Below, in pieces: positions 38,049-55,210 of a DNA stretch of 64,000 nt (position 1 is the stretch's first letter; each line of letters opens with the position of its first letter). Below the pieces are notes generated by a model. That model was not told the DNA's origin. It searched no databases and saw only the letters and a program-made list of their open reading frames with translations. The DNA is taken from NCBI GenBank assembly GCA_964356225.1, contig CAYHGA010000001.1, positions 104,220 to 168,219 on the forward strand, read 5' to 3'. The DNA comes from an uncultured Gammaproteobacteria bacterium. Its GTDB lineage: Bacteria > Patescibacteriota > Microgenomatia > CAZETR01 > Amesbacteraceae. The translations under genes and the position numbers were made by a program.

Positions 38049-40424
38049 CTAGGGGGTGGTTTCAGGAACTAGACGAACTTTCTCTTCTTTTTGAGCACTG
38101 AGTATTTCTGAAGGCTTGGTGGTAATGAGCTTGTGTTCGTCGGGAGAGGCGACGACGCGGATGGCGACGTGATTATTGCCGGCAAAAAACAGACCTTCGC
38201 CCACCTCGCTACTTAATAGTAAATGCTTCTCCCCCTCGGAAAGATAGAAGACCTGGGCGACTTTGTCGATGGCGGCGGGGGATTGTTTCATGAGAACTTG
38301 GATACTGGAATTGGTGACGATGGCCTTGCCGTAATCCGTGCTCAAGAAATCTTCCACGTCCTGGGTAATAGTGGTCAGCCCCAGGAAATACTTGCGGGCG
38401 CGTTTAGCAATGCCGTATAAAAAGGCGGCGGAGTCGGGGGAGCGCATCAGATACCAGGCTTCATCGACAATTAGCAGTCTCTTTTTTAAATCCCGGCGCA
38501 TTTTGGTCCAAATATAATCCAAAATAATAAAAATGGCGATGGGCTTGAGGGAGTCTTCCAAATCGCGGACGGAAAAAACAGTGAAAGGATTTTTGAGATT
38601 GACGTTGCTGGGCTGGTCGATGATGCCGCGGAAGCTGCCTTTGACGAATTTTTCAATGCGGTCGGCCAGGGCCCCGGCCTGGGGTTCTTCCATACCCACC
38701 AGGGCTTTGTAGAGGTCCTCCATGAGGGGTGGAGGGAGTTTTTGGGTTTGGGGATCTGGGGTGATGCCTTTCATTTTGTAGGTGGCAACCAGGGCCCGGT
38801 CCAAAATAGCTTCTTCGGCGGGAGACAAGACGCCCATAATGACCTTAAACAGGGAATGCAGAGAGAGAATTTTTAAGTTTAGTTCGTTTTCATCGGAAGT
38901 GTCGGTGAGGGCAGAGAGGTCGAAGGGGTTGAGGCGGCAGGGAGAATTGAAAGAAAAGTTGATATATTCGCCGCCGACGGCGTCGGAAAGAGTTTTGTAT
39001 TCGTTTTCAGGGTCGATGATAATAATTTCGGTGCCAAACATGAGGGAGCGGAGGATTTCCAGCTTGACCAGGTAGCTTTTTCCGGCGCCAGCTTTGGCAA
39101 AGACAACGGTGTTGGCGTTTTCTAAACTGAACCTGTCAAAAATTACTAAACTGCCGTTGTGCTCGTTGAGTCCATACAGCACGCCTTCGTTGCTGGTGAG
39201 TTCAGAGGAGGTAAAAGGAAAAGTAGTAGCCAGAGAAGTGGTGTCCATGTTGCGGGTGACCATGAGGTGGTCAATACAGGCAGGGAGAGTGGTTTTGAAA
39301 CCGTCGGCCTGTTGGAGAAGGGCGGGGGCGGTGGTGATAAGCAAAGAACCTAAGGTGCTGGAAACCTGTTTGGTGACCTGATTAAGTTCGCTCTCGGATT
39401 TGGCAGGAATGGTGACATACAACCCAAACTGAAAGAAGCGTTCGGCACCTTTGACCAATTGGTCTTGGAGGGAGAGGGCGTCTTCGAGTTTGGCTTGGGT
39501 GCTGGGGTCGACCACCCGGCCACGCTGCAAGTCGGTGGAGATTTCGGCCTCCATTTCGGCAATTTTCCTGCGCAGATCATCGAGAGTGGATTTGCTTTCT
39601 ACGGGGTAGACGAACATAGAGATATTTAAAGAGTGGTCAAAATTAATGAGGGGAGCCAGCCAGTTGGCGGTGACAAAACGGGGATAGCCGGCCACAAAAA
39701 GGGAGCGGAAATACCAGTCGTCGATTTTGAGGGTGTTGAAATCAACTGTAATTACTTGAGGAGCGATGGAGGAGGCGGCTGTGACTTTGGTTTCAACCTG
39801 GGAGCGGTGATAGGAGCTAAAGAAAAACTGAATAAGTTCGGGGGAAGTAAGCTGGCGGGCGCGGAGGCCGATGCGAGCCAACAATCTGGCAAGATGATCA
39901 CGCTTAGGAGAGAGAGCCAGGGCGGCGCGGGCCAGGATTTCGGCTTGGGGTTTGGGCGGAGTTGGGGACTTTTTATTGATAGAAATCAGGGATTTGAAAT
40001 TAGAGGAGATACCAAGCTCCAGAGAAGAGAAGGGAATGGCCACGTAGAACTTTTTGTCCAGGACGTTGCCCTGGCGGACGACGGTTTTAATAAAGTCGCG
40101 ATATTTGGCAAGCTGGTCATGTAAAAGAGAGTTGGCAGTTTTTCCCAGCTGCAGATCCAGGAGGGAAAGATAATCAGAAATATCCTTTTGTTTGGAGGAA
40201 ACGACGATTTGAATGGAAAAAGTGAGAGAGTTAAGAAGCTGGGCGTAGGCATAGATGGTGGCGTCCTGCTCTTTTTCGGACAATAAGCCGAAGTTAAGGG
40301 CGGAAACTTCTAACACTAAGCAAGCGGAGCCGTCTTTGAGAACGACTAAATCTTGAGCGATATCCTGGACGTCAAGATGGTCTTGGGTTGTGGATTTGAT
40401 AATGTGATTAGTTAGTTGGTTCAT
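38049..40424 (-). CDS. VirB4/TrbE/CagE-family type IV secretion ATPase
   Basis: 791 aa. Walker A VVFAKAGAGKSYLV and Walker B LLIVDEAWYLM. The overall VirB4 architecture has a long N-terminal domain. Confidence 0.8.
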   Translation of the reverse strand: MNQLTNHIIKSTTQDHLDVQDIAQDLVVLKDGSACLVLEVSALNFGLLSEKEQDATIYAYAQLLNSLTFSIQIVVSSKQKDISDYLSLLDLQLGKTANSLLHDQLAKYRDFIKTVVRQGNVLDKKFYVAIPFSSLELGISSNFKSLISINKKSPTPPKPQAEILARAALALSPKRDHLARLLARIGLRARQLTSPELIQFFFSSYHRSQVETKVTAASSIAPQVITVDFNTLKIDDWYFRSLFVAGYPRFVTANWLAPLINFDHSLNISMFVYPVESKSTLDDLRRKIAEMEAEISTDLQRGRVVDPSTQAKLEDALSLQDQLVKGAERFFQFGLYVTIPAKSESELNQVTKQVSSTLGSLLITTAPALLQQADGFKTTLPACIDHLMVTRNMDTTSLATTFPFTSSELTSNEGVLYGLNEHNGSLVIFDRFSLENANTVVFAKAGAGKSYLVKLEILRSLMFGTEIIIIDPENEYKTLSDAVGGEYINFSFNSPCRLNPFDLSALTDTSDENELNLKILSLHSLFKVIMGVLSPAEEAILDRALVATYKMKGITPDPQTQKLPPPLMEDLYKALVGMEEPQAGALADRIEKFVKGSFRGIIDQPSNVNLKNPFTVFSVRDLEDSLKPIAIFIILDYIWTKMRRDLKKRLLIVDEAWYLMRSPDSAAFLYGIAKRARKYFLGLTTITQDVEDFLSTDYGKAIVTNSSIQVLMKQSPAAIDKVAQVFYLSEGEKHLLLSSEVGEGLFFAGNNHVAIRVVASPDEHKLITTKPSEILSAQKEEKVRLVPETTP

Positions 40425-40783
40425 GGTTCATTGTTCATGGTTAACGATTTCTTTAGGGCACTAATCATTTTGGATAGGGATTCTAGTTTAGTGTAATAGA
40501 TGCTTAAGTTTTGAGGGTTAATGTATCCTTGGCTTTTTGCAATTGTTAATATGGCGACACATTCATAACATGAACCACGGGACAGGTCCAAGAAATGACG
40601 AAAGTCGTTGATTTTTCTACTGCTTCCTTCGGCGATGTTTAGAGCAATAGATACAACAGCTCTTCTTAATTGGTCGGTTAGGCCATAGGTTTCTTGTTTG
40701 GGCCATGAATTTGTAATGCTGTAAATCTCTGAAGCAATGCTTAATGCTTCTTGATAGACACGCAATTCTTCAAATTTGAACAT
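40421..40783 (-). CDS. four-helix-bundle protein (23S rRNA IVS-protein family)
   Basis: 120 aa. The sequence FEELRVYQEALSIASEIY...YGLTDQLRRAVVSIALNIAEGSSR...FLDLSRGSCYECVAIL matches the family consensus. An ATGA overlap couples it to virB4. Confidence 0.7.
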   Translation of the reverse strand: MFKFEELRVYQEALSIASEIYSITNSWPKQETYGLTDQLRRAVVSIALNIAEGSSRKINDFRHFLDLSRGSCYECVAILTIAKSQGYINPQNLSIYYTKLESLSKMISALKKSLTMNNEP

Positions 40784-40792
40784 TTCTATGAA

Positions 40793-41623
40793 CTATGAAC
40801 TAACTAACCGTGAACTTTCAAGTTGGGCTTTGATGACTATGGGGGAAATAATTTTATTTTCGGCTTGGAGAGTGAGGGGGGAAAATTGTAGGCCCTCCTT
40901 CTCGGCTATTAGAGTGTAGGTTCCTTGGGGTAGTGGGGTAGCAGTCATAAACTGGCCGAGTTTGTTGGAGCGGAGAGCCCGGACAGGAACACCTGCGGCA
41001 TCGGATAATTCTAAAATTACTCCTTCTAAGTACGATCCGGCGGAATCAAGAACTTGGCCAGTGAGAAGGTTGGGGTAGTCGGGAGAGGGAATTGAGTTAT
41101 TGGTTACTTGGTTACTTGGTTCATGGTTCATAGCGGCCGGAGGTTTGATGACTGGTGTTTGGTATTCAGTATTCAATATTCGGTGTTCGGTTGAGGGTTG
41201 AATGGCCGAGAAGGCCAGGTTGGGGTGGGAGAAGATTTGGGAGAAACGAGCAAAAAGCTGGCCTTCGATTACGTCAAGAGTAGTTTTTTTAGTTATTTGG
41301 TTAGTTGGTTCATGGTTCATGGTAGCCGGGGGTTGGGAAGTTTCGGACCAGTGAAATTCTGTGGGAGAGTAGATGGCTTTGATAAAAGCCATGATCCATT
41401 GGGAAAAAGGGCGGCCGGAGACGGGAACAAAAGCCAACATGATACCCATTAAAACCGACAGGGCCATGACGGGCCATTTAATGAAAAAAGGGAGGGGAAG
41501 GCGGTATAAAACCGCAGCAACGGCAATGCCGCCGGCTAATTGGAAAAATTGCTTGAGGGTCATGTCACCCACGAGGTGAAATTCGTATGAAGAAATATTT
41601 TGTGGTACAGGGTGCTGATCCAT
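40793..41623 (-). CDS. membrane protein with C-terminal carboxypeptidase-regulatory-like beta domain
   Basis: Two or three N-terminal TM helices. Two in-frame ATGAACCATGAACC-type micro-repeat patches (MNHEPTNQ, MNHEPSNQ). The C-terminal Ig-like GQVLDSAGSYLEGVILELSDAAGVPV region. Confidence 0.35.
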   Translation of the reverse strand: MDQHPVPQNISSYEFHLVGDMTLKQFFQLAGGIAVAAVLYRLPLPFFIKWPVMALSVLMGIMLAFVPVSGRPFSQWIMAFIKAIYSPTEFHWSETSQPPATMNHEPTNQITKKTTLDVIEGQLFARFSQIFSHPNLAFSAIQPSTEHRILNTEYQTPVIKPPAAMNHEPSNQVTNNSIPSPDYPNLLTGQVLDSAGSYLEGVILELSDAAGVPVRALRSNKLGQFMTATPLPQGTYTLIAEKEGLQFSPLTLQAENKIISPIVIKAQLESSRLVSS

Positions 41624-41986: not shown

Positions 41987-42004
41987 GGCTTTTTCACACA
42001 AAAG
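41987..42004. repeat. 18-bp direct repeat GGCTTTTTCACACAAAAG, copy 1, upstream of mntA
   Basis: An identical 18-mer recurs at 42884-42901 immediately after the hepT stop. Both copies lie upstream of a TTGTAG...TATAAT-like promoter. Confidence 0.55.
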
Positions 42005-42031
42005 TTTTGTAGCCGATGGTATAATTTTATT

Positions 42032-42884: not shown

Positions 42885-42901
42885 GCTTTTTCACACAAAA
42901 G
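42884..42901. repeat. 18-bp direct repeat GGCTTTTTCACACAAAAG, copy 2
   Basis: See copy 1. It lies 26 bp upstream of the 827-aa ORF. Confidence 0.55.
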
Positions 42902-42926
42902 GGAGTGGATGTTGTAGAATTGTGGT

Positions 42927-45420: not shown

Positions 45421-47211
45421 TTATCCCCTTCTTATTTTTCCGCTTAGACTGTCCACAAAGTCTGAATAGCCTTTGCCGAGTCTGCCGGCAGGGATAAACA
45501 CGCCAGGTTTGGATGGGTCTGGAATCATTAACCCAGAGCGAATACCTATTTGGGTACCTACATATGATGCTCCAGTACCGGCGCCCTCTCTGAATGGCAT
45601 GGTGGCTTCTCCGAATGCTGCCCCATACTTAAAGGCGGGAATCTTGAGGGCGTCACGGATCATATCTGCAATCTTGGGGGTGAGAGAAAAAATTACGAAT
45701 CCCGTGCCTAGAGATATTAAAACACTAATTTCTCCTGAACCGCCCATATAGGGGAGAGATAGATTTATTCCACCTAAGTCCCAAAAAGACTTAAGCCCAA
45801 GCATATTGTTTAAAAAAATATTTCCTGACAAGATATTTTGGAGCAGGAACATAATGGGTACGACCGCAAAAACAGAAGCGTTGGCGATTAAATTTCGGAG
45901 CCATGGCCCGAATCCCTGTTGGCCAGGAACGAGATCAAGCATGATTTGGAGGGGGGCTATAACTATTTGAAGGACGATCATTACATAGGCCTTGATAAGC
46001 ATCCAGAGTATTTTCCAGAGAATGATCAAGAAATATATAAAAATTATTGCAATGATGACGGCCCCCAACAATAGACTGCCCCCGGCCGTGAAACCAGCTA
46101 GGGCTATGGAAAATATACCTACTATTAACAAGGAAAAGAACAGGGTGGGAAGGGTTTGAACTGCTGCATAGAGAGCAAAGGGAATGTTGGTAGTAATGTT
46201 TATAGTTCCAGGGAGATTGGTTGTCAGTTGATTTAGACCAAGCATGCCAATAAAGGCCACAATAATCACATAAACAAGGTCAATGACAAAGCCGGCGATG
46301 GCGAAGGAGAAAGTGACTAAAAGCATAGTGATGATGAGCTTGGGGATCATGGTTTGGAGAGAGACGACGGTTTGGGGATTGATTTTGACCCGGAACATAA
46401 TTAGGAAACCAGAGGCGACTAGAAGGATAACCATGACCAGATAGGCCATGTTGCGGGAAGCGGTCCAGAGAGCGCGGACGGCGGAGCCGGAATTGCCGCC
46501 CAAACCACTGAAGCCGTATCCACCGGACTGGGCATAGGCGGGCTGGACGCCAGTGCCAAGGTCAAATAGGCGGGTGGCCATATATTTGATTTCGCCGATA
46601 CCAGAGGCGGGAGGGTTAGAGTAGAGAGCAGAAATGCCGCCGGCGAAAAGACCGGCGGGGCCGAGCTTGGCATAATCTTGGATGGTGGGGAGTTGGCCAG
46701 AGACAGCATCCTTGATAACTTTTTCAATGGCAGTAATAAAATCGAAAAAATCTGTAGCCGTATGAATATTGGCAGCGGGGTTTAACATAGTGGCGATGCT
46801 ATTGATGATCCAGTTAATTTGAGCGTAGGTGTAACGTTCGCCAAAGATATCCGATTCGTTGGTAGGATCTAAAACTTTTTTGGAAAATTGAGAGGGGTTT
46901 TGACTATACCATGGTCCGTCGGTCTGGTTCTCAAAAAGTTTAGAAATTGCCTGGCAAGTTTGTAATGACATCCCTGGGGGAAGAACGGCACAAAAATCGG
47001 CGGAGGCGGGAGGTGGAGCGGTGGAACAGTCGGAAGCTGGAGAACAGCAAGCAAGGGGATTGCTCGTGCCACACGTGACACCGCCGGAAATTGAACAAGT
47101 TCCCCCCGTGACATTAATCGTTCCACAGGCGGCAAAAGTGGGGGTAGCGGATGAGAGCAGGAGAGTAAAAGAGTAGAAGAGTGTAAGTAAAAACAGGGCA
47201 GATTTTTTCAT
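45421..47211 (-). CDS. TrbL/VirB6-like polytopic membrane protein with Cys-rich secreted N-terminal module
   Basis: Signal peptide, then CGT...C..SGG..CG..NPLACCSP..DCS, then at least 6 TM helices with Gly-rich loops. Confidence 0.45.
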   Translation of the reverse strand: MKKSALFLLTLFYSFTLLLSSATPTFAACGTINVTGGTCSISGGVTCGTSNPLACCSPASDCSTAPPPASADFCAVLPPGMSLQTCQAISKLFENQTDGPWYSQNPSQFSKKVLDPTNESDIFGERYTYAQINWIINSIATMLNPAANIHTATDFFDFITAIEKVIKDAVSGQLPTIQDYAKLGPAGLFAGGISALYSNPPASGIGEIKYMATRLFDLGTGVQPAYAQSGGYGFSGLGGNSGSAVRALWTASRNMAYLVMVILLVASGFLIMFRVKINPQTVVSLQTMIPKLIITMLLVTFSFAIAGFVIDLVYVIIVAFIGMLGLNQLTTNLPGTINITTNIPFALYAAVQTLPTLFFSLLIVGIFSIALAGFTAGGSLLLGAVIIAIIFIYFLIILWKILWMLIKAYVMIVLQIVIAPLQIMLDLVPGQQGFGPWLRNLIANASVFAVVPIMFLLQNILSGNIFLNNMLGLKSFWDLGGINLSLPYMGGSGEISVLISLGTGFVIFSLTPKIADMIRDALKIPAFKYGAAFGEATMPFREGAGTGASYVGTQIGIRSGLMIPDPSKPGVFIPAGRLGKGYSDFVDSLSGKIRRG

Positions 47212-47242
47212 TGATATTACTTTAGCATAAATTTATCGAATA

Positions 47243-49162
47243 TTATTGGGCCAGACTGGCGGATTTGATGATGAGCTGGAGGGGGGCGGTGTTTTTTTTG
47301 ACAACCGAGCTGTATACCTGATCACCCAATCCTTCCACTTGTTGATCGTTGGCAGGATCACGGAAGACGGACATGGTATATTCGCCGGCGGTGTCTTCCA
47401 GAGATGAGAAAGGAATGTTTTGAAATAACTGTTTCCACCAATCACCATTTTTAACATAAACGGGGGTGCCCTTGTTGGGATCGAAATCGTCTAGACGTTT
47501 TTTGAAGACGGCAGGGTCGGAACAGGGTTTGGCAGACGTACCCAGAGCGTCATTGCAGCCTACAATTGTGTTGTGAACGTCCTGTTGTCTGGATTCGATG
47601 ACGACGTTTTTGAGAGTGGTGGCCAAGTCGAAAGGGAGAAGTTTGCGCAGGGGGCCGGAATAGTTGACTACGCGGCTGATAGCGGCGGGGTTATTGGAAT
47701 CAATGGGCAGCTGGTCGCCGATTTGGGGAGTGCCGGTGAGGTACCAGGACAAATATTCGTTGACTTTTTGGGCGTCGGTGAGGGTGGTGTCCTGGGTGTT
47801 ACTTAAAACGCCTAAATTGGCGTGAGAGAGATCGACGGTAACGTCAAAAGCTGACGAGCGCCAGCAGGTGACGGTTCCACCATTTTGGAGCATGTTTTTG
47901 AAGTCTCTTTTTTCTTGGTCCGATGTTCCGAATTCGCTGGGATAACAAACGGTATGAGCAAAACCCTTTGTTGTTCTCCTTTCGTATAACCCGTTTTTGC
48001 CATAGGGATCAAAGCGTTCAATTGCCGATGGCGTCAGCGATGTGCCACAAGCAAAAGTATTAAATTTCTTTTCGGAAGTAAGCGGAGCTTCGGGAACGGA
48101 GCGGGAGATTAGGGGATCGCAAGGAGAGCCGGGATATGGGCGCAGAGGATGATATTCAGGGTCGGCAGGATTACCACTACAGGGATAATATTTGAGGGGG
48201 TTAAACCCTTCTTCTAATGGGCCTTTTTTCTGGGGGAGAGGAGGACCAGTGGGAATTTCATCAAACTTATAACCAACTTCACCAAGATAAAAGGGCTTAC
48301 CAAGCTGATTAGATTGATCTTGGGCTTGGGACGCAAGGGACTTTTCCGAGGGATTATAGTAGTGAGCAGAAGTAAGGTCAATGGACGAAGAATTATTACT
48401 GTTTTTAAAGTCACCATTGCCTGGGCTGTCGCCTAAAGTAGTATTTTCGTTCGATTTTTGGCCGATACTGACTTTGGCATCGGAATCGATACGTTTTATT
48501 TGTTGGGCAACATCGTTAGCCCAAAGTTTGTAAGGTCCACGACAAGCGTCAATACCACTACAATGCGGCTCGTTGGCGAGTTCATAGCCAAAGAGCGACG
48601 GATTTCCTTTCAATTTACTAACGACGGATTTTATATATGGAAGATAAGCCGTTTTATAGTCGGAAAGATACCAAGATGTGGGATCGGATCTGATATCACC
48701 AGGGAGAATATCCCCACTACTGTTACTGTAATCTGCGAGAACGACGATGGTTTTGACACCATATTTTTCGGCAGAGTCCAATACTAATTTTGGGTCTCCC
48801 CGGTCGGGACTGCCCCAAACGCGGACAACGGAAACTCCACACTCCTTTGATAAATAAGAAAATGTGTCGTCTGTTTGAGTAGGATGATTGGCCAAACTAT
48901 GAATGTTAACACCGATGAATTTGCCGGAATATTTATCGGCGGCTTGTTTGAGAATGCCACAAACAGGACTTCCTTTGTAAAATGAATAGGGATCGTTTTC
49001 GAAATACTTGTCTTTTGGGCCGGAGTATTGCCAGACAAGAAAACCGGCAGCACCGGAGCCAAACCACTGGTCGAGGTCAGATTGTAAATCGTCGAGTGGA
49101 CCGGCCAAAACGGCGGGAGCCGTAATTAAAATTATGCACAAAAATAGTAAAAGTTTTTTCAT
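47243..49162 (-). CDS. secreted glycoside hydrolase family 5 enzyme
   Basis: Signal peptide MKKLLLFLCIILITAPAVLA. GH5 acid/base motif ELANEPHC and nucleotide-side nucleophile motif YLGEVGY. A long extra C-terminal domain follows. Confidence 0.55.
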   Translation of the reverse strand: MKKLLLFLCIILITAPAVLAGPLDDLQSDLDQWFGSGAAGFLVWQYSGPKDKYFENDPYSFYKGSPVCGILKQAADKYSGKFIGVNIHSLANHPTQTDDTFSYLSKECGVSVVRVWGSPDRGDPKLVLDSAEKYGVKTIVVLADYSNSSGDILPGDIRSDPTSWYLSDYKTAYLPYIKSVVSKLKGNPSLFGYELANEPHCSGIDACRGPYKLWANDVAQQIKRIDSDAKVSIGQKSNENTTLGDSPGNGDFKNSNNSSSIDLTSAHYYNPSEKSLASQAQDQSNQLGKPFYLGEVGYKFDEIPTGPPLPQKKGPLEEGFNPLKYYPCSGNPADPEYHPLRPYPGSPCDPLISRSVPEAPLTSEKKFNTFACGTSLTPSAIERFDPYGKNGLYERRTTKGFAHTVCYPSEFGTSDQEKRDFKNMLQNGGTVTCWRSSAFDVTVDLSHANLGVLSNTQDTTLTDAQKVNEYLSWYLTGTPQIGDQLPIDSNNPAAISRVVNYSGPLRKLLPFDLATTLKNVVIESRQQDVHNTIVGCNDALGTSAKPCSDPAVFKKRLDDFDPNKGTPVYVKNGDWWKQLFQNIPFSSLEDTAGEYTMSVFRDPANDQQVEGLGDQVYSSVVKKNTAPLQLIIKSASLAQ

Positions 49163-51330
49163 GGTGAAACGACACATGAGGCGATATTCAAAACGCTTTG
49201 TTGATAACAAGTGGAAGGATTGGCGACACAAGATGGCCGGGGTGGATATTTGGGGTCGGGATGTTTGGGATCTTCACAATAACCAAGGTATTGTCTGGCG
49301 GCTGTAACAATGTCTGAATTATTCCAATAGCAAGAGGTAGAAGGACCTTGGTTAGTATTGAGCACATAACCAATACATTCAGGAATAGAGTAGCTGGCGG
49401 CTCCACCACGTTCTTGACCAATTTTTTTAGCTGCTGCAAAAGTGGAGTCTAATAGATTACAAATATTGGGGGTACGACCATCGGACACTCCTGCTTCAAC
49501 GACAGCATTGGAATACGAGGACCACGTGCTAGGCAAGAATTGCCAGGGACCTTTAGCGCCGGAACTGCTAATATTACTACCATCACAATTAGTTACTTGA
49601 CAGTTTGGGCCACTGACAGCAAGAACTTTGGATTCATCCCAACCCCATGAAGGGTTAAGGCCTCCCTCATTATAAAATACGCCAACTAGAACAGAGACGG
49701 GAACTTTATAGAATGAGGCAGCTGATTCAAAAATATTTTTCATTGATAATGAAGGAAAAGATATCGAGCAAGTTTGGCATGTAGGGTCGATAATTGGCAG
49801 GGTGGGGAGTGTTGGAGTGCAGGCATTTTGATTGTTGGGAGGAGTAGTAGAAAAACCCAGGGGCCGGAGGGTTTTTTGCAGGCCCTGCAGGAAATATTCA
49901 TACAGACTGCCTAGATGGGGAATATAGATAGTGGGCGTGGCAGAGCCATTTCCGGCCTGAATATTTACTCTGCTACCTTCCTGGTTTACTCCGGTTGCCT
50001 CAGCTAAAAAACTAGCCTGGGAAGGGATTTCCTTAAACTCTTTGGGTAAATTCTTGGGAAAGATTCTTTTTAAGACCGATTGTGATCCTACTACCAGCGA
50101 ATCGTAAATATATTCTATAAGGGGAGTTTTGGTATACACCACGGCCCGGCCCTTGGTAGGATAATCGTTACCAGCGCGGGTGGCGCATTTGTAATAAACA
50201 TCCTCAGTTCCGATTAAGTTAGGGACGACCGTGACTTGCGGAGTCAAAGAATAATAACCATTCCCCTCATATTCCGAACAACATTTGGTGCCGGACCGCC
50301 GTTCTGTCTCGGATATATTGTAATTGTCTTCTTTACATCCGTCCGGGTGGGGAGCGGTTTCATAGGTATATTTTTGGGTATAAGTCAGACTGGATACAAT
50401 TGTGGGGCCCAGGAGATCGTCTCCGGGGTTGGCGCGGGTATCGGCGATACTGCAAAAACCGGAGGCTTTGTAAGGAAGATTGGGGTCGTTGAAAGAATAG
50501 AGAGGATCGGGAGCGGGGGCATTTACTTTCAAGGAAGAATTATTTTTGTCAGACACGTATTGGGTGTCGTCGTCCAGCCCTTGATGAAGCTGAATGCGGG
50601 TGGTAACGGCGGCGGGATTATCAAGAGAAGCTGATTGGGGAGCGGGGGGCTCGGCGTTTTTATTGAATGAGCCGGGAGCGGGATTGAAAATAGACTGGAG
50701 GAGAGTGGACAGGGCGGAGATATTTCTGAGCTGAGGAAACCAGAGGCGGGATTCGCCGGCGCCACTCCTGGCGATATTGGTGCAGAAGCCATATGGAGGG
50801 GTAACTGAAGGAAGAGAGGGAGAGCAATCATTGGGTTTGGGGGGAATTCCTGTTTGACTGCAAGAGTTTTTTGAACCACAACAAAAGACATTGTCGGAAC
50901 AAACTTTGACAGTGTTTATACCAGGAGAACCAAAAGTTAGTCCGTTAAAGGTGAACGGGCCGGAAGTCTGGGTTTCGATTTGGCCTTTGATGGGGGGGGT
51001 GGGGAGGGAGCTGGCCCCTTGGGCAAAATTGGCACCGTAACAGACCCAAAAATTTTGATTGCCGTCGATACCATACGCGCACCAGGGAATAATTTCGGGG
51101 GAAGTGCCGCAAATAGGGGATTTGAGAGTGTCGTAGGCCAAAGTTTCTTCTTTGGTGTCGCAGTACATTTGGATTCCCTGAAACTGGGCCGGAAATGGGG
51201 ATGTGCCGGTTTTTTGACAACGGCAGAGATCTTTTTGAGGATCATTACACCAGCAAGCCGCCCCCGCCGGAGGCGGGGCGGCAGAGCCCAGAAGGAAGAG
51301 AAAAGTGCTCAGGGCAAGAAATTTCTTCAC
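49159..51330 (-). CDS. secreted Cys-rich protein with C-terminal lytic transglycosylase (SLT-like) domain
   Basis: Signal peptide. N-terminal CWCNDPQKDLCRCQ. The C-terminal FYNEGGLNPS...SSGAKGPWQFLPSTW resembles the SLT E...S...GxMQ..P.TW motifs. Confidence 0.45.
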   Translation of the reverse strand: MKKFLALSTFLFLLGSAAPPPAGAACWCNDPQKDLCRCQKTGTSPFPAQFQGIQMYCDTKEETLAYDTLKSPICGTSPEIIPWCAYGIDGNQNFWVCYGANFAQGASSLPTPPIKGQIETQTSGPFTFNGLTFGSPGINTVKVCSDNVFCCGSKNSCSQTGIPPKPNDCSPSLPSVTPPYGFCTNIARSGAGESRLWFPQLRNISALSTLLQSIFNPAPGSFNKNAEPPAPQSASLDNPAAVTTRIQLHQGLDDDTQYVSDKNNSSLKVNAPAPDPLYSFNDPNLPYKASGFCSIADTRANPGDDLLGPTIVSSLTYTQKYTYETAPHPDGCKEDNYNISETERRSGTKCCSEYEGNGYYSLTPQVTVVPNLIGTEDVYYKCATRAGNDYPTKGRAVVYTKTPLIEYIYDSLVVGSQSVLKRIFPKNLPKEFKEIPSQASFLAEATGVNQEGSRVNIQAGNGSATPTIYIPHLGSLYEYFLQGLQKTLRPLGFSTTPPNNQNACTPTLPTLPIIDPTCQTCSISFPSLSMKNIFESAASFYKVPVSVLVGVFYNEGGLNPSWGWDESKVLAVSGPNCQVTNCDGSNISSSGAKGPWQFLPSTWSSYSNAVVEAGVSDGRTPNICNLLDSTFAAAKKIGQERGGAASYSIPECIGYVLNTNQGPSTSCYWNNSDIVTAARQYLGYCEDPKHPDPKYPPRPSCVANPSTCYQQSVLNIASCVVSP

Positions 51331-51339
51331 CAGTTTATT

Positions 51340-51627
51340 CTAGCAGACGGGGCCGGGGAGGCAGATGGAGAACATGGAGAAATTCAGTCCAAGGAAATTC
51401 CCCAGTAAGTTTAAGATAATCCAGGCAGATAAAACCAAGACCAGGCCACCGATGGCGTAGGTGAGAGTTTTTTGAGCTTTGGCGGCGCCTTCTTTGTCTC
51501 CACCGGCAGTTAAAAACCCAAAACCGCCCACAATCAACATTACTAAGACCGCAATTCCGGCTAAGGTCAAAGCACCGGAGACCACGGATGAAAAGACGGT
51601 TTCGAGATTTTGAATAGTGGCGGGCAT
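51340..51627 (-). CDS. pilin-like small 2-TM protein (VirB2/TrbC-like candidate), paralog 8 (promoter-distal; the array is minus-strand)
   Basis: 95 aa, two TM helices. The family motif is AGGDKEGAAKAQKTLTYAIGGLVLVLSAWII. Confidence 0.5.
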   Translation of the reverse strand: MPATIQNLETVFSSVVSGALTLAGIAVLVMLIVGGFGFLTAGGDKEGAAKAQKTLTYAIGGLVLVLSAWIILNLLGNFLGLNFSMFSICLPGPVC

Positions 51628-51704
51628 GTTTTTATTTTAACACTTCTCATCAAAACCAAATTGTCCCGCTTGCGGCGGGACAATTTAACGTCAACCCTAA
51701 GCAA

Positions 51705-52118
51705 CTATTGGGTAGTAATTGAGGGAATTACGAGGTTTAGAATACTGATGCCGAATATGCTATCGATAAGGAACGCAATGGCGTAGGTAGAAAAGACAAT
51801 CGCAAGGCCCAATAGGGCGGCCGTAATACGCTTGCGAGCTTTTTCGGTCCCTTCTTTGTCGCCGCCGGCCATAATCCATTGGACTCCTCCTATTAAGAGA
51901 AAGAAGAAGGCGACTAAACCTGCGCCCATTAGCACAAGGTTAATGCTGAGGCGAAGGATGTTTTGGGCATTAAACGTTCCCTCAGTGCCGATTGTCTGCC
52001 CTATTCCAGACTTAGGGATTAAGTCTATATTTTCTGCAAGGGCTGTGGTTGGTGATACGGTGAGCATTGTTGCTAGAGCAGAACCGTATTTGATGGCGTT
52101 TTTAATTTTGTTTGTCAA
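51705..52118 (-). CDS. pilin-like small 2-TM protein, paralog 7
   Basis: 137 aa. Contains MAGGDKEGTEKARKRITAALLGLAIVFSTYAI. Confidence 0.5.
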   Translation of the reverse strand: MTNKIKNAIKYGSALATMLTVSPTTALAENIDLIPKSGIGQTIGTEGTFNAQNILRLSINLVLMGAGLVAFFFLLIGGVQWIMAGGDKEGTEKARKRITAALLGLAIVFSTYAIAFLIDSIFGISILNLVIPSITTQ

Positions 52119-52133
52119 AGATGCTCACCTCCT

Positions 52134-52472
52134 TTACTGGATGACAGGAATTGTAAATTTAGTAATAGAAACACCAAATAATGTTTCAACTAAGTAGATT
52201 ATAGCAAAGATGGAGAAGACAATTGCAAGACCTATTAAAGCAGCGGTGAGACGTTTGGAGGCGGATTGGGTGCGTTCTTTGTCTCCTCCGGCGGTGATAT
52301 ATTCTATTCCGCCCCAGAGGAGCATAAAAAAGAAAATAATGCCGGCGGCTCCCAAAGCTAGAGTAATAAAATTGGTGAGAAAGAGCTGGAGGATGTCGAT
52401 GCCGGAACTATAACCAACGCTAGTATTGATTGCGGGGTTTTTAATGACGAAACCTTGGGCAAGTATTCTCAT
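52134..52472 (-). CDS. pilin-like small 2-TM protein, paralog 6
   Basis: 112 aa. Contains TAGGDKERTQSASKRLTAALIGLAIVFSIFAI. Confidence 0.5.
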   Translation of the reverse strand: MRILAQGFVIKNPAINTSVGYSSGIDILQLFLTNFITLALGAAGIIFFFMLLWGGIEYITAGGDKERTQSASKRLTAALIGLAIVFSIFAIIYLVETLFGVSITKFTIPVIQ

Positions 52473-52909
52473 CTTCGTGGAGTGCCACCGCCTCCAGTAC
52501 TACCGGGAATGTTACAAGTAAAGGTTGTGGTTCCGATGGTATTGGAAAAAAGGTCTCCAAATGGACAAAGGATGTTTATTCCGAAGATTAATCCTATGAT
52601 TCCAATTAGGGCGTAGGAAAATACGACTACAAACAGTCCTAAAATAGCATTCACGATTCTTTTTTGGGCGTTTTGCAGGGCTTGTTTTTCTCCTCCACCC
52701 GCTAACCACTGAAAGGCTCCGGCAAATATTTGAATGATAAACCAGACTCCGGCCGCAACAGTGAGAACACCGATTCCCGTGGAAAGAGTGGAGACAAAAA
52801 GGGCAAAGGGCTCTGTTCCTCCTTTGGTCAGGGTCTTGGTAAAATCTCCCAGGGGCCCCACGCCCTCAAAAGTTCCTAAAGGAGCGTCGGCTAAGAATTT
52901 CATGGGCAT
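52469..52909 (-). CDS. pilin-like small 2-TM protein, paralog 5
   Basis: 146 aa. Contains LAGGGEKQALQNAQKRIVNAILGLFVVVFSYAL. Confidence 0.5.
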   Translation of the reverse strand: MPMKFLADAPLGTFEGVGPLGDFTKTLTKGGTEPFALFVSTLSTGIGVLTVAAGVWFIIQIFAGAFQWLAGGGEKQALQNAQKRIVNAILGLFVVVFSYALIGIIGLIFGINILCPFGDLFSNTIGTTTFTCNIPGSTGGGGTPRR

Positions 52910-53256
52910 GATCCGGGCCCGTAAATAACGGGGGAGATAATGGCGGTGGCATCGCCAAAAATTAAATAGCCAAAGATTCCTGCAAGAACAAATGAGCCGG
53001 CGACAAAAGTCAGACCGAGGAGAGATTGGGTGAACTTGCCAAAAGCCTTACCCATGGCTTTGGCATCGTCACCGGCGGACATAAATCCGTAACCGGCGGC
53101 AATGAAATTCCAAAAAGCATATAGGCCGGCCAGGACGATGACCGTTTTAAGCAGGCCATTGCTTAGAGTAATCAATCCAGATCCACATTCACTACCTTTT
53201 AGGGGTGAATTTAATGTTGCAAACGGGTCATAAATTTTACCGAATGGGGAAATCAT
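52900..53256 (-). CDS. pilin-like small 2-TM protein, paralog 4
   Basis: 118 aa. Contains MSAGDDAKAMGKAFGKFTQSLLGLTFVAGSFVL. Confidence 0.5.
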   Translation of the reverse strand: MISPFGKIYDPFATLNSPLKGSECGSGLITLSNGLLKTVIVLAGLYAFWNFIAAGYGFMSAGDDAKAMGKAFGKFTQSLLGLTFVAGSFVLAGIFGYLIFGDATAIISPVIYGPGSCP

Positions 53257-53597
53257 AGTCTTATGTTAAAAAAGTCGATGCCGGTAATGACCCCGACTGC
53301 TTGGAGTATAAAATAAGCGGAGATGACAAGCAAGAATCCGATAACGGAAAATGTGATAGTATTTTTTGCTTGAGCTGCGGCTTTGGCGTCATCTCTGCCG
53401 GCTGACGAAATCATGGAAAATCCGGCGCCAAGCAGTAAAAACAAAAATATGACTCCGGCGCCAATGAGAGCGTTGGGGAGAAGGGAAGTGATAAGAGTAC
53501 CGAGATTGGCGTTGGTCCCGCCCGCAATGCCTGCGGCTTGAGGGGAATTTGTAAAAAACTGTTCATTAATGTCTACTTGGGATAATAATTTGGTCAT
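53253..53597 (-). CDS. pilin-like small 2-TM protein, paralog 3
   Basis: 114 aa. Contains SSAGRDDAKAAAQAKNTITFSVIGFLLVISAYFI. Confidence 0.5.
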   Translation of the reverse strand: MTKLLSQVDINEQFFTNSPQAAGIAGGTNANLGTLITSLLPNALIGAGVIFLFLLLGAGFSMISSAGRDDAKAAAQAKNTITFSVIGFLLVISAYFILQAVGVITGIDFFNIRL

Positions 53598-53899
53598 AAG
53601 ATTTCGATGCCAAAGATGGTTTGTATAACCTGAATTATAAAGTAAGCGGAAATGACAACTAATAAACCAATAAGAGCATTGACAAGTTCTTTAGAGGCGC
53701 TCTGGATTTTGTTTTGATCACCGGCGTTGGTGAGGTAGGTGTATCCGGCGGAAATAAGACGAACGAAGAAAAATAAACCGGAGAGGGCGATGGCAAAAGT
53801 AAGAATGCGGGCTACATAATATCCAAGAAACACATCTGGGGTAAGAAGATTTAGGGGACCAGGTTGGTTAATGCCAGTGATTTGGGCGAGTTGTTTCAT
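53594..53899 (-). CDS. pilin-like small 2-TM protein, paralog 2
   Basis: 101 aa. Contains TNAGDQNKIQSASKELVNALIGLLVVISAYFI. Confidence 0.5.
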   Translation of the reverse strand: MKQLAQITGINQPGPLNLLTPDVFLGYYVARILTFAIALSGLFFFVRLISAGYTYLTNAGDQNKIQSASKELVNALIGLLVVISAYFIIQVIQTIFGIEIL

Positions 53900-54639
53900 A
53901 GGTTGAGACCAGGATTTCCTACGAAGCCGGGTAAATTAAGGATTTTTACTCCAATAAAGTTTAACAGAACGAGGCTTAATGCAATAATGATGAGGCCGGC
54001 GAGGGCGGACATGAGCAGTTCGCGGGCGGCTTGAACCTTTTTCGGGTCGCCACTGGCGGTGGTCATTTGAAAGCCGGCTAAGACGATCATCAAAAAGGCA
54101 ATACCTCCGCCAACCCCTACTCCCCAACCTAAGAGTTGGGAAACCAGCTGTTTGGGATCTCCGGCCATCAAACAACCAATGGCAGTAGAGACTCCAAGAT
54201 TATCTGTGCCACAAAGAGCGCTTGAGCTGGCTGCGGGGGGATTGATGAGAGAAACACACACTCCGCTGCTGCAATTTCCGAAACTGCAGGTGTTTCCGGG
54301 ACAACAAGTTTGTCCTACATTACCGCAAGCTGCACAGTGAATTGTATTGTCGCAGTTCAGGTTGTTGAAGCAGCGAAAACCGCCAGTATATGAACCGCAA
54401 CAAGGATCTCCGACTTTATCACAAGTAGTGGGGGGGGTAGTGGGGGCTGGGATTTTACAATGGATTGTACTATCGCACTCGCTTGCTGGTGGATTGCAAT
54501 ACAAAATACTAGTTATAGAACCACAACAGGCATCGCCTACAGCGCTGCAGTTGGTGGCGAGGGAGGGGGACGGCCGGAGGCCGGAATAAACACCAATAAG
54601 TACCAAGGCCGAAATAAATATTAATAATTTACCGTTCAC
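53896..54639 (-). CDS. pilin-like protein with N-terminal triple Cys-rich module, paralog 1
   Basis: 247 aa with a signal peptide. It has three repeats of GDxCCGS...C.N...C..TIHC, then the family 2-TM core (TASGDPKKVQAARELLMSALAGLIIIALSL). Confidence 0.5.
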   Translation of the reverse strand: MNGKLLIFISALVLIGVYSGLRPSPSLATNCSAVGDACCGSITSILYCNPPASECDSTIHCKIPAPTTPPTTCDKVGDPCCGSYTGGFRCFNNLNCDNTIHCAACGNVGQTCCPGNTCSFGNCSSGVCVSLINPPAASSSALCGTDNLGVSTAIGCLMAGDPKQLVSQLLGWGVGVGGGIAFLMIVLAGFQMTTASGDPKKVQAARELLMSALAGLIIIALSLVLLNFIGVKILNLPGFVGNPGLNL

Positions 54640-54649: not shown

Positions 54650-55210
54650 TTAGCACAATTTTTGCAGCCAGAGTTTTTTCAGGCGGGAGAATTGATGGGG
54701 GTTGAGATTGAGTTCGGGGACGGAGGTTTGAGAGTTGAAAAGGCTTATCACACCGGTGGGGATTTGAGACCAGTCAAGAGATGGAAGTAAGAGGAGGCTG
54801 ATAATGTCAATTAAGTCTTTGTGGCCTTTGCCGCTGCCTTGACGGGCGCGGTAAGCGGTGAGCTTGAGGGCGATGAGAGTTTCAGGCGGGGGGACGGTGA
54901 AACCGTCAACAATGACGGTCCGGTCAATGTCGGGGCCCAGCTGGGAGTAGTGGGGAACGTAAACGTCAATTTGGACTTCGTCCCGGGCGATCTCGTATTT
55001 TTTGAGGCGCTCGTTTTTGGTTAGGGGAAAGTCGTAGCGAAGTTTTTCTAAAGTATCGAATTTGACTAACAAATCAATGTCTTTGGATTTGAGCTGGTGG
55101 GTGTAGAGCCAGACTGCCCAGCCGCCAATTAGAATAAATTGGTATTTTTTGGCCAGCTGTTGTAAAAGTTCCCAGCTCTTGGTGGTGACTTGGTCACGGT
55201 AATAGTTCAT
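54650..55210 (-). CDS. AbiEii/AbiGii-like nucleotidyltransferase (putative type IV TA toxin)
   Basis: FILIGGWAVWLYTHQLKSKDIDLLV matches the GG...R.S.DIDL NTase pattern of AbiEii toxins. It overlaps the upstream wHTH gene by 17 bp. Confidence 0.4.
   Translation of the reverse strand: MNYYRDQVTTKSWELLQQLAKKYQFILIGGWAVWLYTHQLKSKDIDLLVKFDTLEKLRYDFPLTKNERLKKYEIARDEVQIDVYVPHYSQLGPDIDRTVIVDGFTVPPPETLIALKLTAYRARQGSGKGHKDLIDIISLLLLPSLDWSQIPTGVISLFNSQTSVPELNLNPHQFSRLKKLWLQKLC

What the first reader, a model, noticed from the sequence alone, without database searches (positions are those of the whole stretch)
45421..54639. Recurrent Cys-rich N-terminal modules on three different secreted components of the cluster
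Three secreted components each begin, after a signal peptide, with a short Cys-dense module:
- the TrbL-like protein (CGT..C..CG..CCSP..DCS)
- the SLT-domain protein (CWCNDPQKDLCRCQ)
- the first pilin-like paralog (three repeats of GDxCCGS...C.N...C..IHC)

Disulfide-knotted extracellular modules are unusual for a bacterial T4SS. They might be adhesion or host-recognition knobs, which would be relevant if this organism is an epibiont.
Basis: seen in the sequence. Interest (0 to 1): 0.5.

Follow-up and report, generated by a model that had tools for sequence, protein, structure and literature searches.

The report
Swappable cysteine-rich heads on T4SS parts
In this ultra-small (CPR/Microgenomates) bacterium, three surface-exposed parts of a type IV secretion machine carry small, almost certainly disulfide-bonded N-terminal modules that are swapped, gained and lost between related genomes while the rest of each protein stays conserved, which makes them candidates for what the machine uses to touch other cells.

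Summary
After Sec-type signal peptides, the first of eight tandem T4SS pilins has 18 Cys in 106 residues. The VirB6-like protein has all 8 of its Cys in 59 residues. The VirB1/SLT-like protein starts CWC..CRC and has 31 Cys overall. Background in the window is 0.68 %.

The three modules in this window do not align with each other, so they are not one recurrent module. Homologues from other Microgenomatia show something stronger. At least three module families (A, B, C) sit at the junction between signal peptide and conserved core. Each family occurs on pilin, VirB6-like and SLT-like proteins in different genomes, for example a pilin versus a VirB6-like protein at 67 % identity over 79 aa, E=6e-30.

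Cores stay 66-91 % identical while the modules are replaced or absent. Exported Cys counts are even in 68/68 pilins and 109/110 VirB6-like proteins, which argues for disulfides. They are odd in 16/16 SLT-like proteins.

No Pfam, NCBIfam or PDB family matches the modules, and AlphaFold2 gives no confident model. The papers I found on Patescibacterial T4SS do not mention them.

Most likely they are exchangeable, disulfide-stabilised surface heads on the pilus and stalk. A role in target-cell binding is inferred, not shown.

The parts
54556..54639 (-). Signal peptide of pilin 1 (res 1-28, MNGKLLIFISALVLIGVYSGLRPSPSLA)
   Evidence: Direct reading and hydrophobicity heuristic. The c-region PSPSLA is conserved in orthologues.
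54457..54549 (-). Type-B 6-Cys module, copy 1 (C31-C61: CSAVGDACCGSITSILYCNPPASECDSTIHC)
   Evidence: Homologous to copy 2 (z=11.6).
54334..54423 (-). Type-B module, copy 2 (C73-C102: CDKVGDPCCGSYTGGFRCFNNLNCDNTIHC)
   Evidence: It aligns with modules on pilin P0004 (z=8.0), VirB6-like P0119 (z=6.3), distant pilin P0229 (z=7.5) and the non-CPR protein P0227 (z=8.3).
54256..54327 (-). Type-B module, copy 3, short variant (C105-C128: CGNVGQTCCPGNTCSFGNCSSGVC)
   Evidence: Same C-x6-CC framework. The 28-nt unit is in register with copies 1 and 2.
54172..54213 (-). Conserved 2-Cys beta-hairpin (C143-C156, LCG..GVxTAIGCL) just before the first membrane helix
   Evidence: C143 is nearly invariant and C156 invariant in alignment A2. 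AlphaFold2 models a hairpin at 149-158 with pLDDT about 80.
53896..54222 (-). VirB2-like pilin core of pilin 1 (two long helices joined by the GDPKK loop)
   Evidence: Pfam PF18895, 43 bits. NCBIfam Mbov_0395 pilin-like, E=7e-6. AF2 helices 162-194 and 199-234. Core is 77-91 % identical in more than 30 clusters.
51340..53899 (-). Seven further tandem pilin paralogues (pil2-pil8), none with an N-terminal Cys module
   Evidence: The same eight-gene array, with the module-bearing pilin first, occurs in L002 and L003; L080 shows the module-bearing pilin first, followed by six called genes.
49159..51330 (-). VirB1/SLT-like secreted protein, 723 aa, 31 Cys. Signal peptide at 51259-51330. CWC..CRC at 51217-51255. 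Cys-rich N-region at 50761-51258. Lytic-transglycosylase-like motifs (NE555GG, GPWQ597F) at about 49411-49749.
   Evidence: Profile against PDB: Slt35/MltB E=0.03, with the catalytic Glu and GxxQ motif aligned. Pfam SLT_2 hits 4/19 homologues. Cys count is odd in 16/16 homologues.
47243..49165 (-). Secreted GH5-family glycoside hydrolase between the SLT-like and VirB6-like genes
   Evidence: Pfam PF00150, 33.8 bits against a cut-off of 23.5. A gene of this size holds the same position in L002, L003 and L080; the L002 and L003 genes match GH5 by tblastn at 39-50 %.
47131..47211 (-). Signal peptide of the VirB6-like protein (res 1-27)
   Evidence: Direct reading and heuristic.
47026..47127 (-). 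Type-A 6-Cys module (C29-C62: CGTINVTGGTCSISGGVTCGTSNPLACCSPASDC)
   Evidence: An HMM trained only on pilin type-A modules scores it 16.4 bits, above all 4,450 composition-matched decoys. It is 83 % identical to the module of P0102, whose core is only 55 % identical.
46954..46992 (-). 2-Cys loop (C74-C86) that is the commonest form of this region in the VirB6-like family
   Evidence: 53 of 110 homologues have exactly 2 Cys here.
45421..46953 (-). Helical ectodomain and polytopic membrane domain of the VirB6-like protein
38049..41623 (-). VirB4-like ATPase (38049-40424) and PrgI/VirB3-like protein (40793-41623), which define the T4SS context
   Evidence: Pfam P-loop_TraG 6e-31, AAA_10, TraC_F_IV. 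PrgI 6.8e-9.

Best explanation
The Cys-dense stretches are small, independently folding, disulfide-stabilised extracellular modules. Each is attached to the mature N-terminus of a surface-exposed T4SS component. In pilin 1 and the VirB6-like protein the attachment runs through a short Pro/Thr/Ser-rich linker.

The components are the first pilin of an eight-gene VirB2-like array, a highly divergent VirB6-like stalk or channel protein, and a VirB1-like cell-wall hydrolase.

The modules belong to a pool of at least three unannotated module families:
- Type A: C..C..C..CC-x5-C.
- Type B: C-x6-CC..C..C..C.
- Type C: F-x-C-x-W...

During the evolution of Microgenomatia these modules have been inserted, duplicated, replaced and deleted at one fixed position, between the signal peptide and the conserved core. 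This happened in all three protein families.

In this genome the pilin carries three type-B copies, the VirB6-like protein one type-A copy, and the hydrolase a CxC..CxC start inside a generally disulfide-rich ectodomain.

Shown here: extracytoplasmic position, Cys pairing, modularity, cross-family sharing, and hypervariability against conserved cores.

Inferred: because a VirB2-type pilin exposes its N-terminus on the outside of the filament, the modules decorate the pilus and stalk surface. There they act as exchangeable contact heads that bind structures on the partner (host) cell envelope, so module turnover tracks partner or enemy specificity.

My confidence is about 0.9 for disulfide-bonded, swappable surface modules and about 0.45 for a binding or recognition function.
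For: Cys enrichment and clustering:
- Far above background.

Cys parity:
- The exported N-part has an even Cys count in 68/68 pilin orthologues (2 to 34 Cys) and in 109/110 VirB6-like orthologues.
- This is repeated in orthologues from named Microgenomatia genomes, 36/38 even; the two exceptions have a Cys in the signal peptide.
- Minor pilins gain and lose Cys only in pairs.
- CPR genomes are reported to be enriched in MdbA-like oxidoreductase with VKOR (10.1101/335083).

Cross-family sharing:
- Pilin P0004 against VirB6-like P0119: 67 % identity over 79 aa, E=6e-30.
- Pilin P0047 against VirB6-like P0120: 52 % over 42 aa, E=2e-11.
- Pattern counts against shuffles: type A in 25/70 pilins (1.1 expected), 8/69 VirB6-like (0.1) and 2/20 SLT-like (0.2). 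Type C in 6/70, 3/69 and 1/20 (<=0.1 expected).
- A pilin-only type-A HMM finds the window's VirB6-like module and two SLT-family members; the VirB6-like module and the stronger SLT member score above all 4,450 decoys, the second SLT member is reached by one decoy.
- The window's pilin module aligns with VirB6-like P0119 at z=6.3.

Mosaicism:
- The pilin core is 77-91 % identical in more than 30 clusters while the module is unalignable.
- Against the syntenic locus L002, the pilin core is 79 %, the other pilins 57-89 %, the VirB6-like rest 66 % and SpoIID 75 % identical, but both modules give no hit.
- The VirB6-like module is absent in 29/110 homologues.

Position in the locus:
- The module-bearing pilin is always the first gene of the array in a conserved locus.

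Context:
- The T4SS context is established by VirB4, PrgI, pilins and the VirB6 fold.
- In a cultivated Saccharibacterium the T4SS and its pilin array are essential for epibiotic growth (PMC10633639; PMC12102498).
Against: - No structure: AlphaFold2 gives pLDDT below 50-55 for every module.
- No similarity to any known adhesin, lectin or carbohydrate-binding family.
- Many orthologues lack a module altogether, so it is not needed for the core machine.
- Type B also occurs in a lipoprotein-like protein of an unrelated 61 % GC bacterium, so the modules are not T4SS-specific.
- Within one genome the heads on different components are usually of different types, so they are not a matched set.
- Hypervariability alone cannot separate binding specificity from evasion of phages or from relaxed constraint.
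- Signal peptides and pilus assembly are inferred, not demonstrated.
- The homologue sets are related sequences, so the parity counts are not fully independent.
Confidence: 0.5

Rival explanations
1. The modules are stability caps. They are disulfide-rich plugs that only protect the exposed N-termini of extracellular T4SS parts from proteases and unfolding. Their diversity reflects weak constraint on everything except the cysteines.
For: - Only the Cys columns are invariant in the type-A alignment.
- Modules are dispensable in many orthologues.
- No binding-type residues or known binding fold were recognised.
Against: - Drift does not explain wholesale replacement by a different module family at the same junction.
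- It does not explain tandem multiplication (3-5 copies).
- It does not explain the near-identical module on proteins of different families (E=6e-30).
- It does not explain a module that is more conserved than its carrier (83 % against 55 %).
Confidence: 0.2
2. The variation is driven by evasion. Exposed pilus and stalk tips are receptors for phages or targets of partner defences, and module swapping is antigenic or receptor variation rather than a search for ligands.
For: - The combination of a hypervariable exposed segment and a conserved core is the classic signature of receptor variation.
- Tandem pilin paralogues in Bartonella and Anaplasma are interpreted this way in PMC12102498.
Against: - No silent cassette store or other variation machinery exists in the 64-kb window.
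- Variation is seen between species-level genomes, not shown within populations.
- This explanation is not exclusive of a binding role.
Confidence: 0.15
3. The modules bind the cell's own wall or S-layer. They position the pilin, VirB6-like protein and hydrolase during assembly, in the way carbohydrate-binding or SLH-type anchoring modules do.
For: - All three carriers must cross or act on the producer's own wall.
- A wall hydrolase and a GH5 enzyme sit in the same operon.
- The Pro/Thr-rich linkers resemble those of carbohydrate-binding modules (direct reading).
Against: - A self-ligand should be conserved, whereas the modules are the least conserved parts of the locus and are often absent.
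- No CBM, LysM, SLH or PG-binding signature was found.
Confidence: 0.1
4. The cysteines coordinate metals (Zn, Fe or Cu clusters) rather than forming disulfides. This would apply especially to the CxC..CxC start of the hydrolase.
For: - CxC pairs occur in metal-binding proteins (general knowledge).
- Even counts are also expected for 4-Cys sites.
Against: - The modules are exported by Sec signal peptides.
- They have CC doublets and 6-Cys frameworks without CxxC pairs.
- Counts range from 2 to 34 in steps of two, which fits disulfide pairs better than tetrahedral sites.
Confidence: 0.04

Closest known systems
Patescibacterial (CPR) T4SS with VirB2-like pilin arrays (Southlakia epibionticum SEML1_0006-0019, Wang et al. 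2023, PMC10633639; survey by Quinonero-Coronel et al. 2025, PMC12102498)
   Same: - Chromosomal MPF-FATA-like T4SS next to dnaA.
- VirB4, PrgI/VirB3-like protein and a tandem array of divergent VirB2-like pilins (8 here; 2-11 reported, abundant in Microgenomatia).
- No relaxase in sight.
   Different: - Those papers do not describe Cys-rich N-terminal modules.
- They report VirB6 as scarce in Microgenomatia. Here a Pfam-negative family with a VirB6 fold fills that place and also carries the modules.
Bartonella Trw and Rickettsiales (rvh) T4SSs with amplified VirB2/VirB5 paralogues and extended VirB6 proteins
   Same: - Tandemly multiplied, divergent surface subunits.
- VirB6 proteins with extra hydrophilic domains, thought to diversify the exposed surface for host interaction or immune evasion (PMC12102498; PMC12857230).
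   Different: - Those systems vary whole paralogues or large C-terminal extensions in diderm pathogens of animals.
- Here one fixed junction receives small disulfide-rich cassettes, and the same cassette families are shared between pilin, VirB6-like and hydrolase proteins in a monoderm epibiont lineage.
Modular type IV pilins (pilin moiety with a grafted functional module, e.g. Streptococcus sanguinis PilB/PilC) and the disulfide-bounded D-region of type IVa pilins (own knowledge, not tested here)
   Same: - A conserved filament-forming core with an added, surface-displayed module that confers adhesion.
- Disulfide loops in the exposed, variable part.
   Different: - An unrelated filament system (type IV pili, not T4SS).
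- Those modules are C-terminal and belong to known folds (vWA, lectin).
- No sharing of modules with other machine components is known.
Small disulfide-rich domains: inhibitor cystine knots, hevein-like peptides (CBM18 family), hydrophobins, beta-defensins
   Same: - 30-40 residues, six Cys, a CC doublet, and few conserved non-Cys positions.
- The best (non-significant) PDB profile matches of type A are a spider knottin (E=0.16), hydrophobins (E about 0.7) and a hevein-like peptide (E=5).
   Different: - The frameworks differ from the canonical ones: type A is C-C-C-CC-C and type B is C-CC-C-C-C, against the cystine-knot C-C-CC-C-C.
- No family reaches significance.
- The aromatic chitin-binding residues of hevein are absent.

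Membership tests
T4SS_pilin / VirB2-like pilin (Pfam PF18895) | Profile match above the curated threshold | tested here: met
   43 bits against a cut-off of 26.6 for pilin 1, and 43.6 bits for pil8. NCBIfam Mbov_0395 pilin-like, E=7e-6, which is below its cut-off.
T4SS_pilin / VirB2-like pilin (Pfam PF18895) | Leader peptide followed by a two-helix membrane hairpin with a short basic loop | tested here: met
   AF2 helices 162-194 and 199-234 with pLDDT 80-88, loop SGDPKK. The signal peptide was judged by its features only.
T4SS_pilin / VirB2-like pilin (Pfam PF18895) | Encoded with a VirB4 ATPase in one T4SS locus | tested here: met
   VirB4-like gene at 38049-40424. Conserved synteny in L002, L003 and L080.
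T4SS_pilin / VirB2-like pilin (Pfam PF18895) | Polymerises into an extracellular pilus | not testable with these tools
   Needs microscopy or biochemistry.
VirB6/TrbL (Pfam PF04610) | Sequence profile match | tested here: inconclusive
   No hit for the window protein. 1 of 68 homologues matches TrbL at E=0.006. The profile against PDB sequences finds nothing.
VirB6/TrbL (Pfam PF04610) | Polytopic membrane protein (>=5 helices) with the VirB6 fold | tested here: met
   [not shown]
Lytic transglycosylase (SLT / SLT_2, VirB1-like) | Profile match above threshold | tested here: not met
   Window protein: none at E<=0.01. SLT_2 gives E=0.25 on a 22-residue stretch. 4/19 homologues match SLT_2, best E=0.0013, below the gathering score.
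Lytic transglycosylase (SLT / SLT_2, VirB1-like) | Catalytic Glu followed by the G-x-x-Q(F/L) motif in the right register | tested here: inconclusive
   The family profile aligns IEG/NE555GG and GAxGPxQ597 with the catalytic Glu region and GAMGYGQF of E. coli Slt35/MltB, at E=0.03.
Inhibitor cystine knot / knottin | Six Cys in the framework C-C-CC-C-C with a knotted 1-4, 2-5, 3-6 connectivity | tested here: not met
   The frameworks are C-C-C-CC-C (type A) and C-CC-C-C-C (type B). Connectivity is not testable. The best PDB match, purotoxin-6, has E=0.16.
Hevein / chitin-binding CBM18 | C-x4-CC-x5-C-x6-C core with conserved Ser and aromatic sugar-binding residues; Pfam PF00187 match | tested here: not met
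   No Pfam hit at E<=10. The CC-x5-C segment is present in type A but without the aromatic residues.
Cassette-based pilin variation (Neisseria pilE/pilS type) | Silent partial copies of the variable segment elsewhere in the genome | tested here: not met
   A six-frame scan of the 64-kb window finds module-like patterns only in the expressed genes. The rest of the genome was not available.

The most novel reading that the evidence does not exclude
The N-terminal modules are the host-range determinants of Microgenomatia. They form a combinatorial set of miniature disulfide-rich ligand-binding (or defensin/knottin-like envelope-targeting) heads that are shuffled among the pilin, the VirB6-like stalk protein and the wall hydrolase of the essential T4SS. 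Swapping a roughly 35-residue cassette would then retarget the epibiont to a new partner cell surface.
Probability: 0.25. Interest if true: 0.85.

Novelty: new variant of a known kind. Interest (0 to 1): 0.6.

Why it matters
What decides which host a CPR/Patescibacteria cell can attach to is an open question. The T4SS with its pilin array is one of the few machines shown to be essential for epibiotic growth in this group (PMC10633639).

A short, sharply delimited, hypervariable and exchangeable segment on the exposed ends of three T4SS components gives concrete, testable candidates for specificity determinants. The modules are small enough to synthesise or express and to test for binding. Their types can also be tracked in metagenomes against co-occurring organisms.

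The work has three further products:
- A candidate for the VirB6 that a recent survey reported as scarce in Microgenomatia.
- At least two unannotated disulfide-rich domain families.
- Sequence-based evidence (Cys-count parity) that these organisms oxidise exported cysteines.

Tried and rejected
1. Structure of the modules. AlphaFold2 with homologue alignments gave pLDDT below 50 for pilin residues 27-134 and below 55 for VirB6-like residues 21-71. No fold search on the modules was therefore meaningful.
2. Known families. Pfam at E<=10, NCBIfam at E<=1, and PDB profile searches for types A and B gave nothing significant.
3. One common module in the three window proteins. Rejected: pairwise scores are within shuffled controls, except pil1 repeat 1 against the VirB6-like module (z=3.6, PPASEC/SPASDC), which is marginal after 21 comparisons.
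4. Matched heads on pilin and VirB6-like protein of one genome. Not shown. The nearly identical pair P0004/P0119 comes from different samples. Genomes where both genes sit on one contig often carry different types.
5. Silent cassettes for recombination. None in the window.
6. How common type B is. A profile search of 1.84 billion representatives found only 8 proteins. Clustering at 50 % hides module variants, so this is a lower bound.
7. Foldseek of the pilin model against PDB was unspecific, returning helical hairpins; an archaeal conjugation pilin ranked 4 at E=5.
8. The afdb50 library was not available.
9. Chance or artefact. Rejected by the enrichment statistics and by exact matches of all three proteins in public assemblies.


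Full report
**What is in the window**

Region 45421-54639 lies on the minus strand of a conserved chromosomal type IV secretion (T4SS) locus. Reading in the direction of transcription:
- Eight tandem small membrane proteins (54639 down to 51340). Two score above the curated cut-off of Pfam T4SS_pilin (PF18895), and two more match it more weakly, below the cut-off.
- A 723-aa secreted protein (51330-49159).
- A secreted GH5 glycoside hydrolase (49165-47243; PF00150, 33.8 bits).
- A 596-aa polytopic membrane protein (47211-45421).

Further along the same strand lie a PrgI/VirB3-like protein (41623-40793) and a VirB4-like ATPase (40424-38049; P-loop_TraG 6e-31). They are separated from the first block by toxin-antitoxin-like genes and an 827-aa gene on the other strand. 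dnaA and dnaN lie at 32694-35317.

Named homologues are from Candidatus Amesbacteria and other Microgenomates. The layout agrees with the published description of Patescibacterial T4SS: MPF-FATA-like, pilin arrays of 2-11 genes that are abundant in Microgenomatia, and often close to dnaA (PMC12102498).

**Check of the observation**

The quoted motifs are present.

- *Pilin 1* (247 aa). After MNGKLLIFISALVLIGVYSGLRPSPSLA it has 18 Cys in residues 31-128, arranged as three six-Cys units, plus two Cys in a conserved hairpin.
  - Units 1 and 2 are clear repeats (z=11.6 against shuffles).
  - Unit 3 is a shortened variant. It keeps the C-x6-CC start and is in register at DNA level: a 28-nt unit occurs at 54302, 54398 and 54524.
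- *The 596-aa protein.* All eight of its Cys lie in residues 29-86 (clustering p=1.3e-8).
- *The 723-aa protein.* It starts ACWCNDPQKDLCRCQ after its signal peptide, but its 31 Cys are spread over the whole chain.

Cys makes up 0.68 % of 38 other ORFs in the window, against 17 %, 13.6 % and 4.4 % here (P from 6e-20 to 8e-9).

All three proteins have a basic n-region, a hydrophobic core and small residues at -3/-1 (and direct reading). SignalP could not be run.

**Identity of the carriers**

- *The 596-aa protein.* It has no Pfam domain, and neither do the 120 homologues listed.
  - Its AlphaFold2 model is confident over the membrane domain (pLDDT above 90 for residues 250-520).
  - Foldseek ranks four TrwI chains first. 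One homologue of 68 touches Pfam TrbL (E=0.006).
  - I therefore treat it as a divergent VirB6-like protein. This is relevant because VirB6 was reported as scarce in Microgenomatia.
- *The 723-aa protein.* It is only weakly linked to lytic transglycosylases.
  - Its family profile aligns a conserved Glu and a GAxGPxQ motif with the catalytic region of E. coli Slt35 (E=0.03).
  - 4 of 19 homologues touch SLT_2 (best E=0.0013).

**Are the three modules one thing?**

Within this window, no. The frameworks are:
- VirB6-like protein: C-x9-C-x7-C-x7-CC-x5-C.
- Pilin: C-x6-CC-x8-C-x5/6-C-x5-C.
- Hydrolase: CxC-x7-CxC.

Pairwise alignment scores do not exceed shuffled controls, apart from one marginal local match (z=3.6).

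**What the homologues show**

In the orthologues of pilin 1 (72 clusters) the C-terminal pilin core is highly conserved. This core comprises the hairpin LCG..GVxTAIGCL and two helices, and it is 77-91 % identical in more than 30 clusters. The stretch between signal peptide and core differs in length, sequence and architecture and is usually unalignable.

In the VirB6-like family the conserved core begins at GPWYNQ..EIFGERYTYAQINW. The stretch before it has 0 Cys in 29 proteins, 2 Cys in 53, and 4 to 12 Cys in 27.

In the hydrolase family the CWC..C.C start is kept in close relatives but is replaced in others.

Three recurrent module kinds can be defined, and each occurs on more than one carrier family.

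- *Type A* (C..C..C..CC-x5-C, often CCDxxxEC, starting at the mature N-terminus).
  - Found in 25/70 pilins, 8/69 VirB6-like and 2/20 hydrolase N-regions. Composition-preserving shuffles predict 1.1, 0.1 and 0.2.
  - A profile built from pilin copies alone scores the window's VirB6-like module at 16.4 bits, above all 4,450 decoys (best decoy 13.1). It also finds hydrolase-family members P0205 and P0204.
- *Type B* (the window's pilin repeat).
  - Occurs twice on VirB6-like protein P0119. That region is 67 % identical over 79 residues to pilin P0004 (E=6e-30).
  - The window's own module aligns with P0119 at z=6.3.
- *Type C* (F-x-C-x-W...).
  - Links pilin P0047 and VirB6-like P0120 (52 % over 42 aa, E=2e-11).
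  - It also appears on hydrolase P0212.

**Mosaic pattern in syntenic loci**

Related groundwater contigs keep the same gene order, with the module-bearing pilin always first in the array: SpoIID, then the pilin array (eight genes in L002 and L003), the hydrolase, a GH5-sized gene, the VirB6-like gene, and a large gene on the opposite strand.

Against locus L002:
- Pilin core 79 %, the other pilins 57-89 %, the VirB6-like remainder 66 % and SpoIID 75 % identical.
- Neither module finds any match.

Conversely, the window's type-A module is 83 % identical to that of P0102, whose core is only 55 % identical. This discordance points to exchange of the module rather than simple drift.

No silent copies of the modules exist in the window.

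**Disulfides**

The number of Cys in the exported N-part is:
- Even in 68 of 68 pilin orthologues (2 to 34 Cys).
- Even in 109 of 110 VirB6-like proteins.
- Even in 36 of 38 pilin orthologues parsed from named species-representative genomes of Amesbacteria, Woesebacteria, Gottesmanbacteria and others. The two exceptions have a Cys inside the signal peptide.

Minor pilins of the array gain or lose Cys in pairs.

This even-number bias is the classical genomic signature of oxidative folding of exported proteins (established knowledge). CPR genomes are reported to be enriched in an MdbA-like oxidoreductase with VKOR (10.1101/335083).

The hydrolase family is the opposite. All 16 full-length members have an odd count (19 to 39), as do the L002 and L003 orthologues (27 and 41). 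This implies one conserved unpaired Cys.

**What the modules resemble**

Nothing significant was found:
- Pfam and NCBIfam give no hit.
- A type-B profile finds nothing in PDB sequences.
- A type-A profile finds only sub-threshold matches to a spider knottin, hydrophobins and a hevein-like peptide.
- AlphaFold2 gives no confident model.

A type-B profile search of 1.84 billion representative proteins returns only eight proteins:
- Five pilins, two of which are distant pilins with four tandem copies.
- Three non-pilin proteins. One of these was traced to a 61 % GC contig, where it sits next to aconitase-family genes.

Type B is thus a rare, unannotated repeat that is not exclusive to T4SS.

**Interpretation**

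Firmly supported:
- The stretches are extracytoplasmic, disulfide-bonded modules.
- In pilin 1 and the VirB6-like protein they are joined to their carriers by Pro/Thr/Ser-rich linkers (KIPAPTTPPTT, STAPPPASADF).
- They are drawn from a pool of module families inserted at one junction in three T4SS protein families.
- They turn over much faster than the carriers.

Inferred:
- In VirB2-type pili both termini face outward (established for F-type pili). The pilin modules would therefore be displayed on the filament, and the VirB6-like module on the distal end of its helical ectodomain.
- The most economical functional reading is exchangeable contact heads for the partner cell surface.

The data do not separate this from stabilising caps, evasion of phages that use the pilus, or anchoring to the producer's own wall.

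The papers I found on Patescibacterial T4SS do not mention such modules. I rate this a new variant of a known system.

Noticed in passing
window 49159-51330 (-): The SLT-like hydrolase family always has an odd number of Cys (16/16 full-length homologues, 19-39; the window protein has 31; L002 and L003 orthologues have 27 and 41). One Cys is therefore probably unpaired. The central region (about res 190-500) has invariant H249, Q250, G251, D254, NNSS263-266, C293, N301 and GD303-304 and matches no known family. It could be an unrecognised Cys/His hydrolase domain, by analogy with the SLT+CHAP hydrolases of monoderm T4SSs.
   Followed up: partly
[not shown]
   Followed up: yes
window 47243-49165 (-): A secreted GH5 glycoside hydrolase (PF00150) sits between the wall hydrolase and the VirB6-like gene. 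A gene of similar size occupies that slot in three related loci. A polysaccharide-cleaving enzyme as a conserved T4SS neighbour is unusual.
   Followed up: partly
window 52900-53256 (-) and 51340-52909 (-): Minor pilins carry 0 or 2 Cys, and orthologues gain or lose them as pairs. In the window's pil4 the pair is C24 and C117, near the two outward-facing termini. A disulfide there would tie N- and C-terminus together, reminiscent of head-to-tail cyclised T-pilins.
   Followed up: partly
window 1-64000: Very strong strand asymmetry: G 18,252 against C 11,298 on the + strand (GC skew +0.235). It is positive in genes of both orientations and shows no sign change at dnaA/dnaN (32694-35317). Related Amesbacteria loci show the same magnitude.
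   Followed up: partly
window 40421-45410 and 54650-55796: The T4SS locus is interrupted and flanked by small defence or TA-like genes. These include two 23S-rRNA-IVS four-helix-bundle proteins, a nucleotidyltransferase plus a HEPN-like pair, an AbiEii/DUF6036-like nucleotidyltransferase, and a Crp-type HTH protein. An 827-aa protein without any family match lies on the opposite strand, and a gene of 837-954 aa occupies that position in related loci.
   Followed up: no
window 47161-47181 (-); L002 13524: A nearly identical signal-peptide core, LLTLFYS[SF]TLLLSS, recurs in 15 VirB6-like homologues, one pilin and a minor pilin of L002. This suggests a stereotyped leader shared by different exported proteins of this lineage.
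   Followed up: partly
P0064, P0062, P0020, P0026, P0038, L015 (not in the window): Other pilin-1 orthologues carry a further module with a beta-defensin-like framework (about C-x6-C-x6-C-x8-C-x5-CC). The second module of P0047 gives a weak Pfam Defensin_beta_2 match (E=0.017). Gottesmanbacteria orthologues (L071, L077) have 4-5 copies of yet another repeat.
   Followed up: partly
L005 3391-4080 (P0227): The type-B repeat also occurs three times in a lipoprotein-like protein on a 61 % GC contig, next to aconitase-family genes. That organism is clearly different from the CPR carriers.
   Followed up: partly
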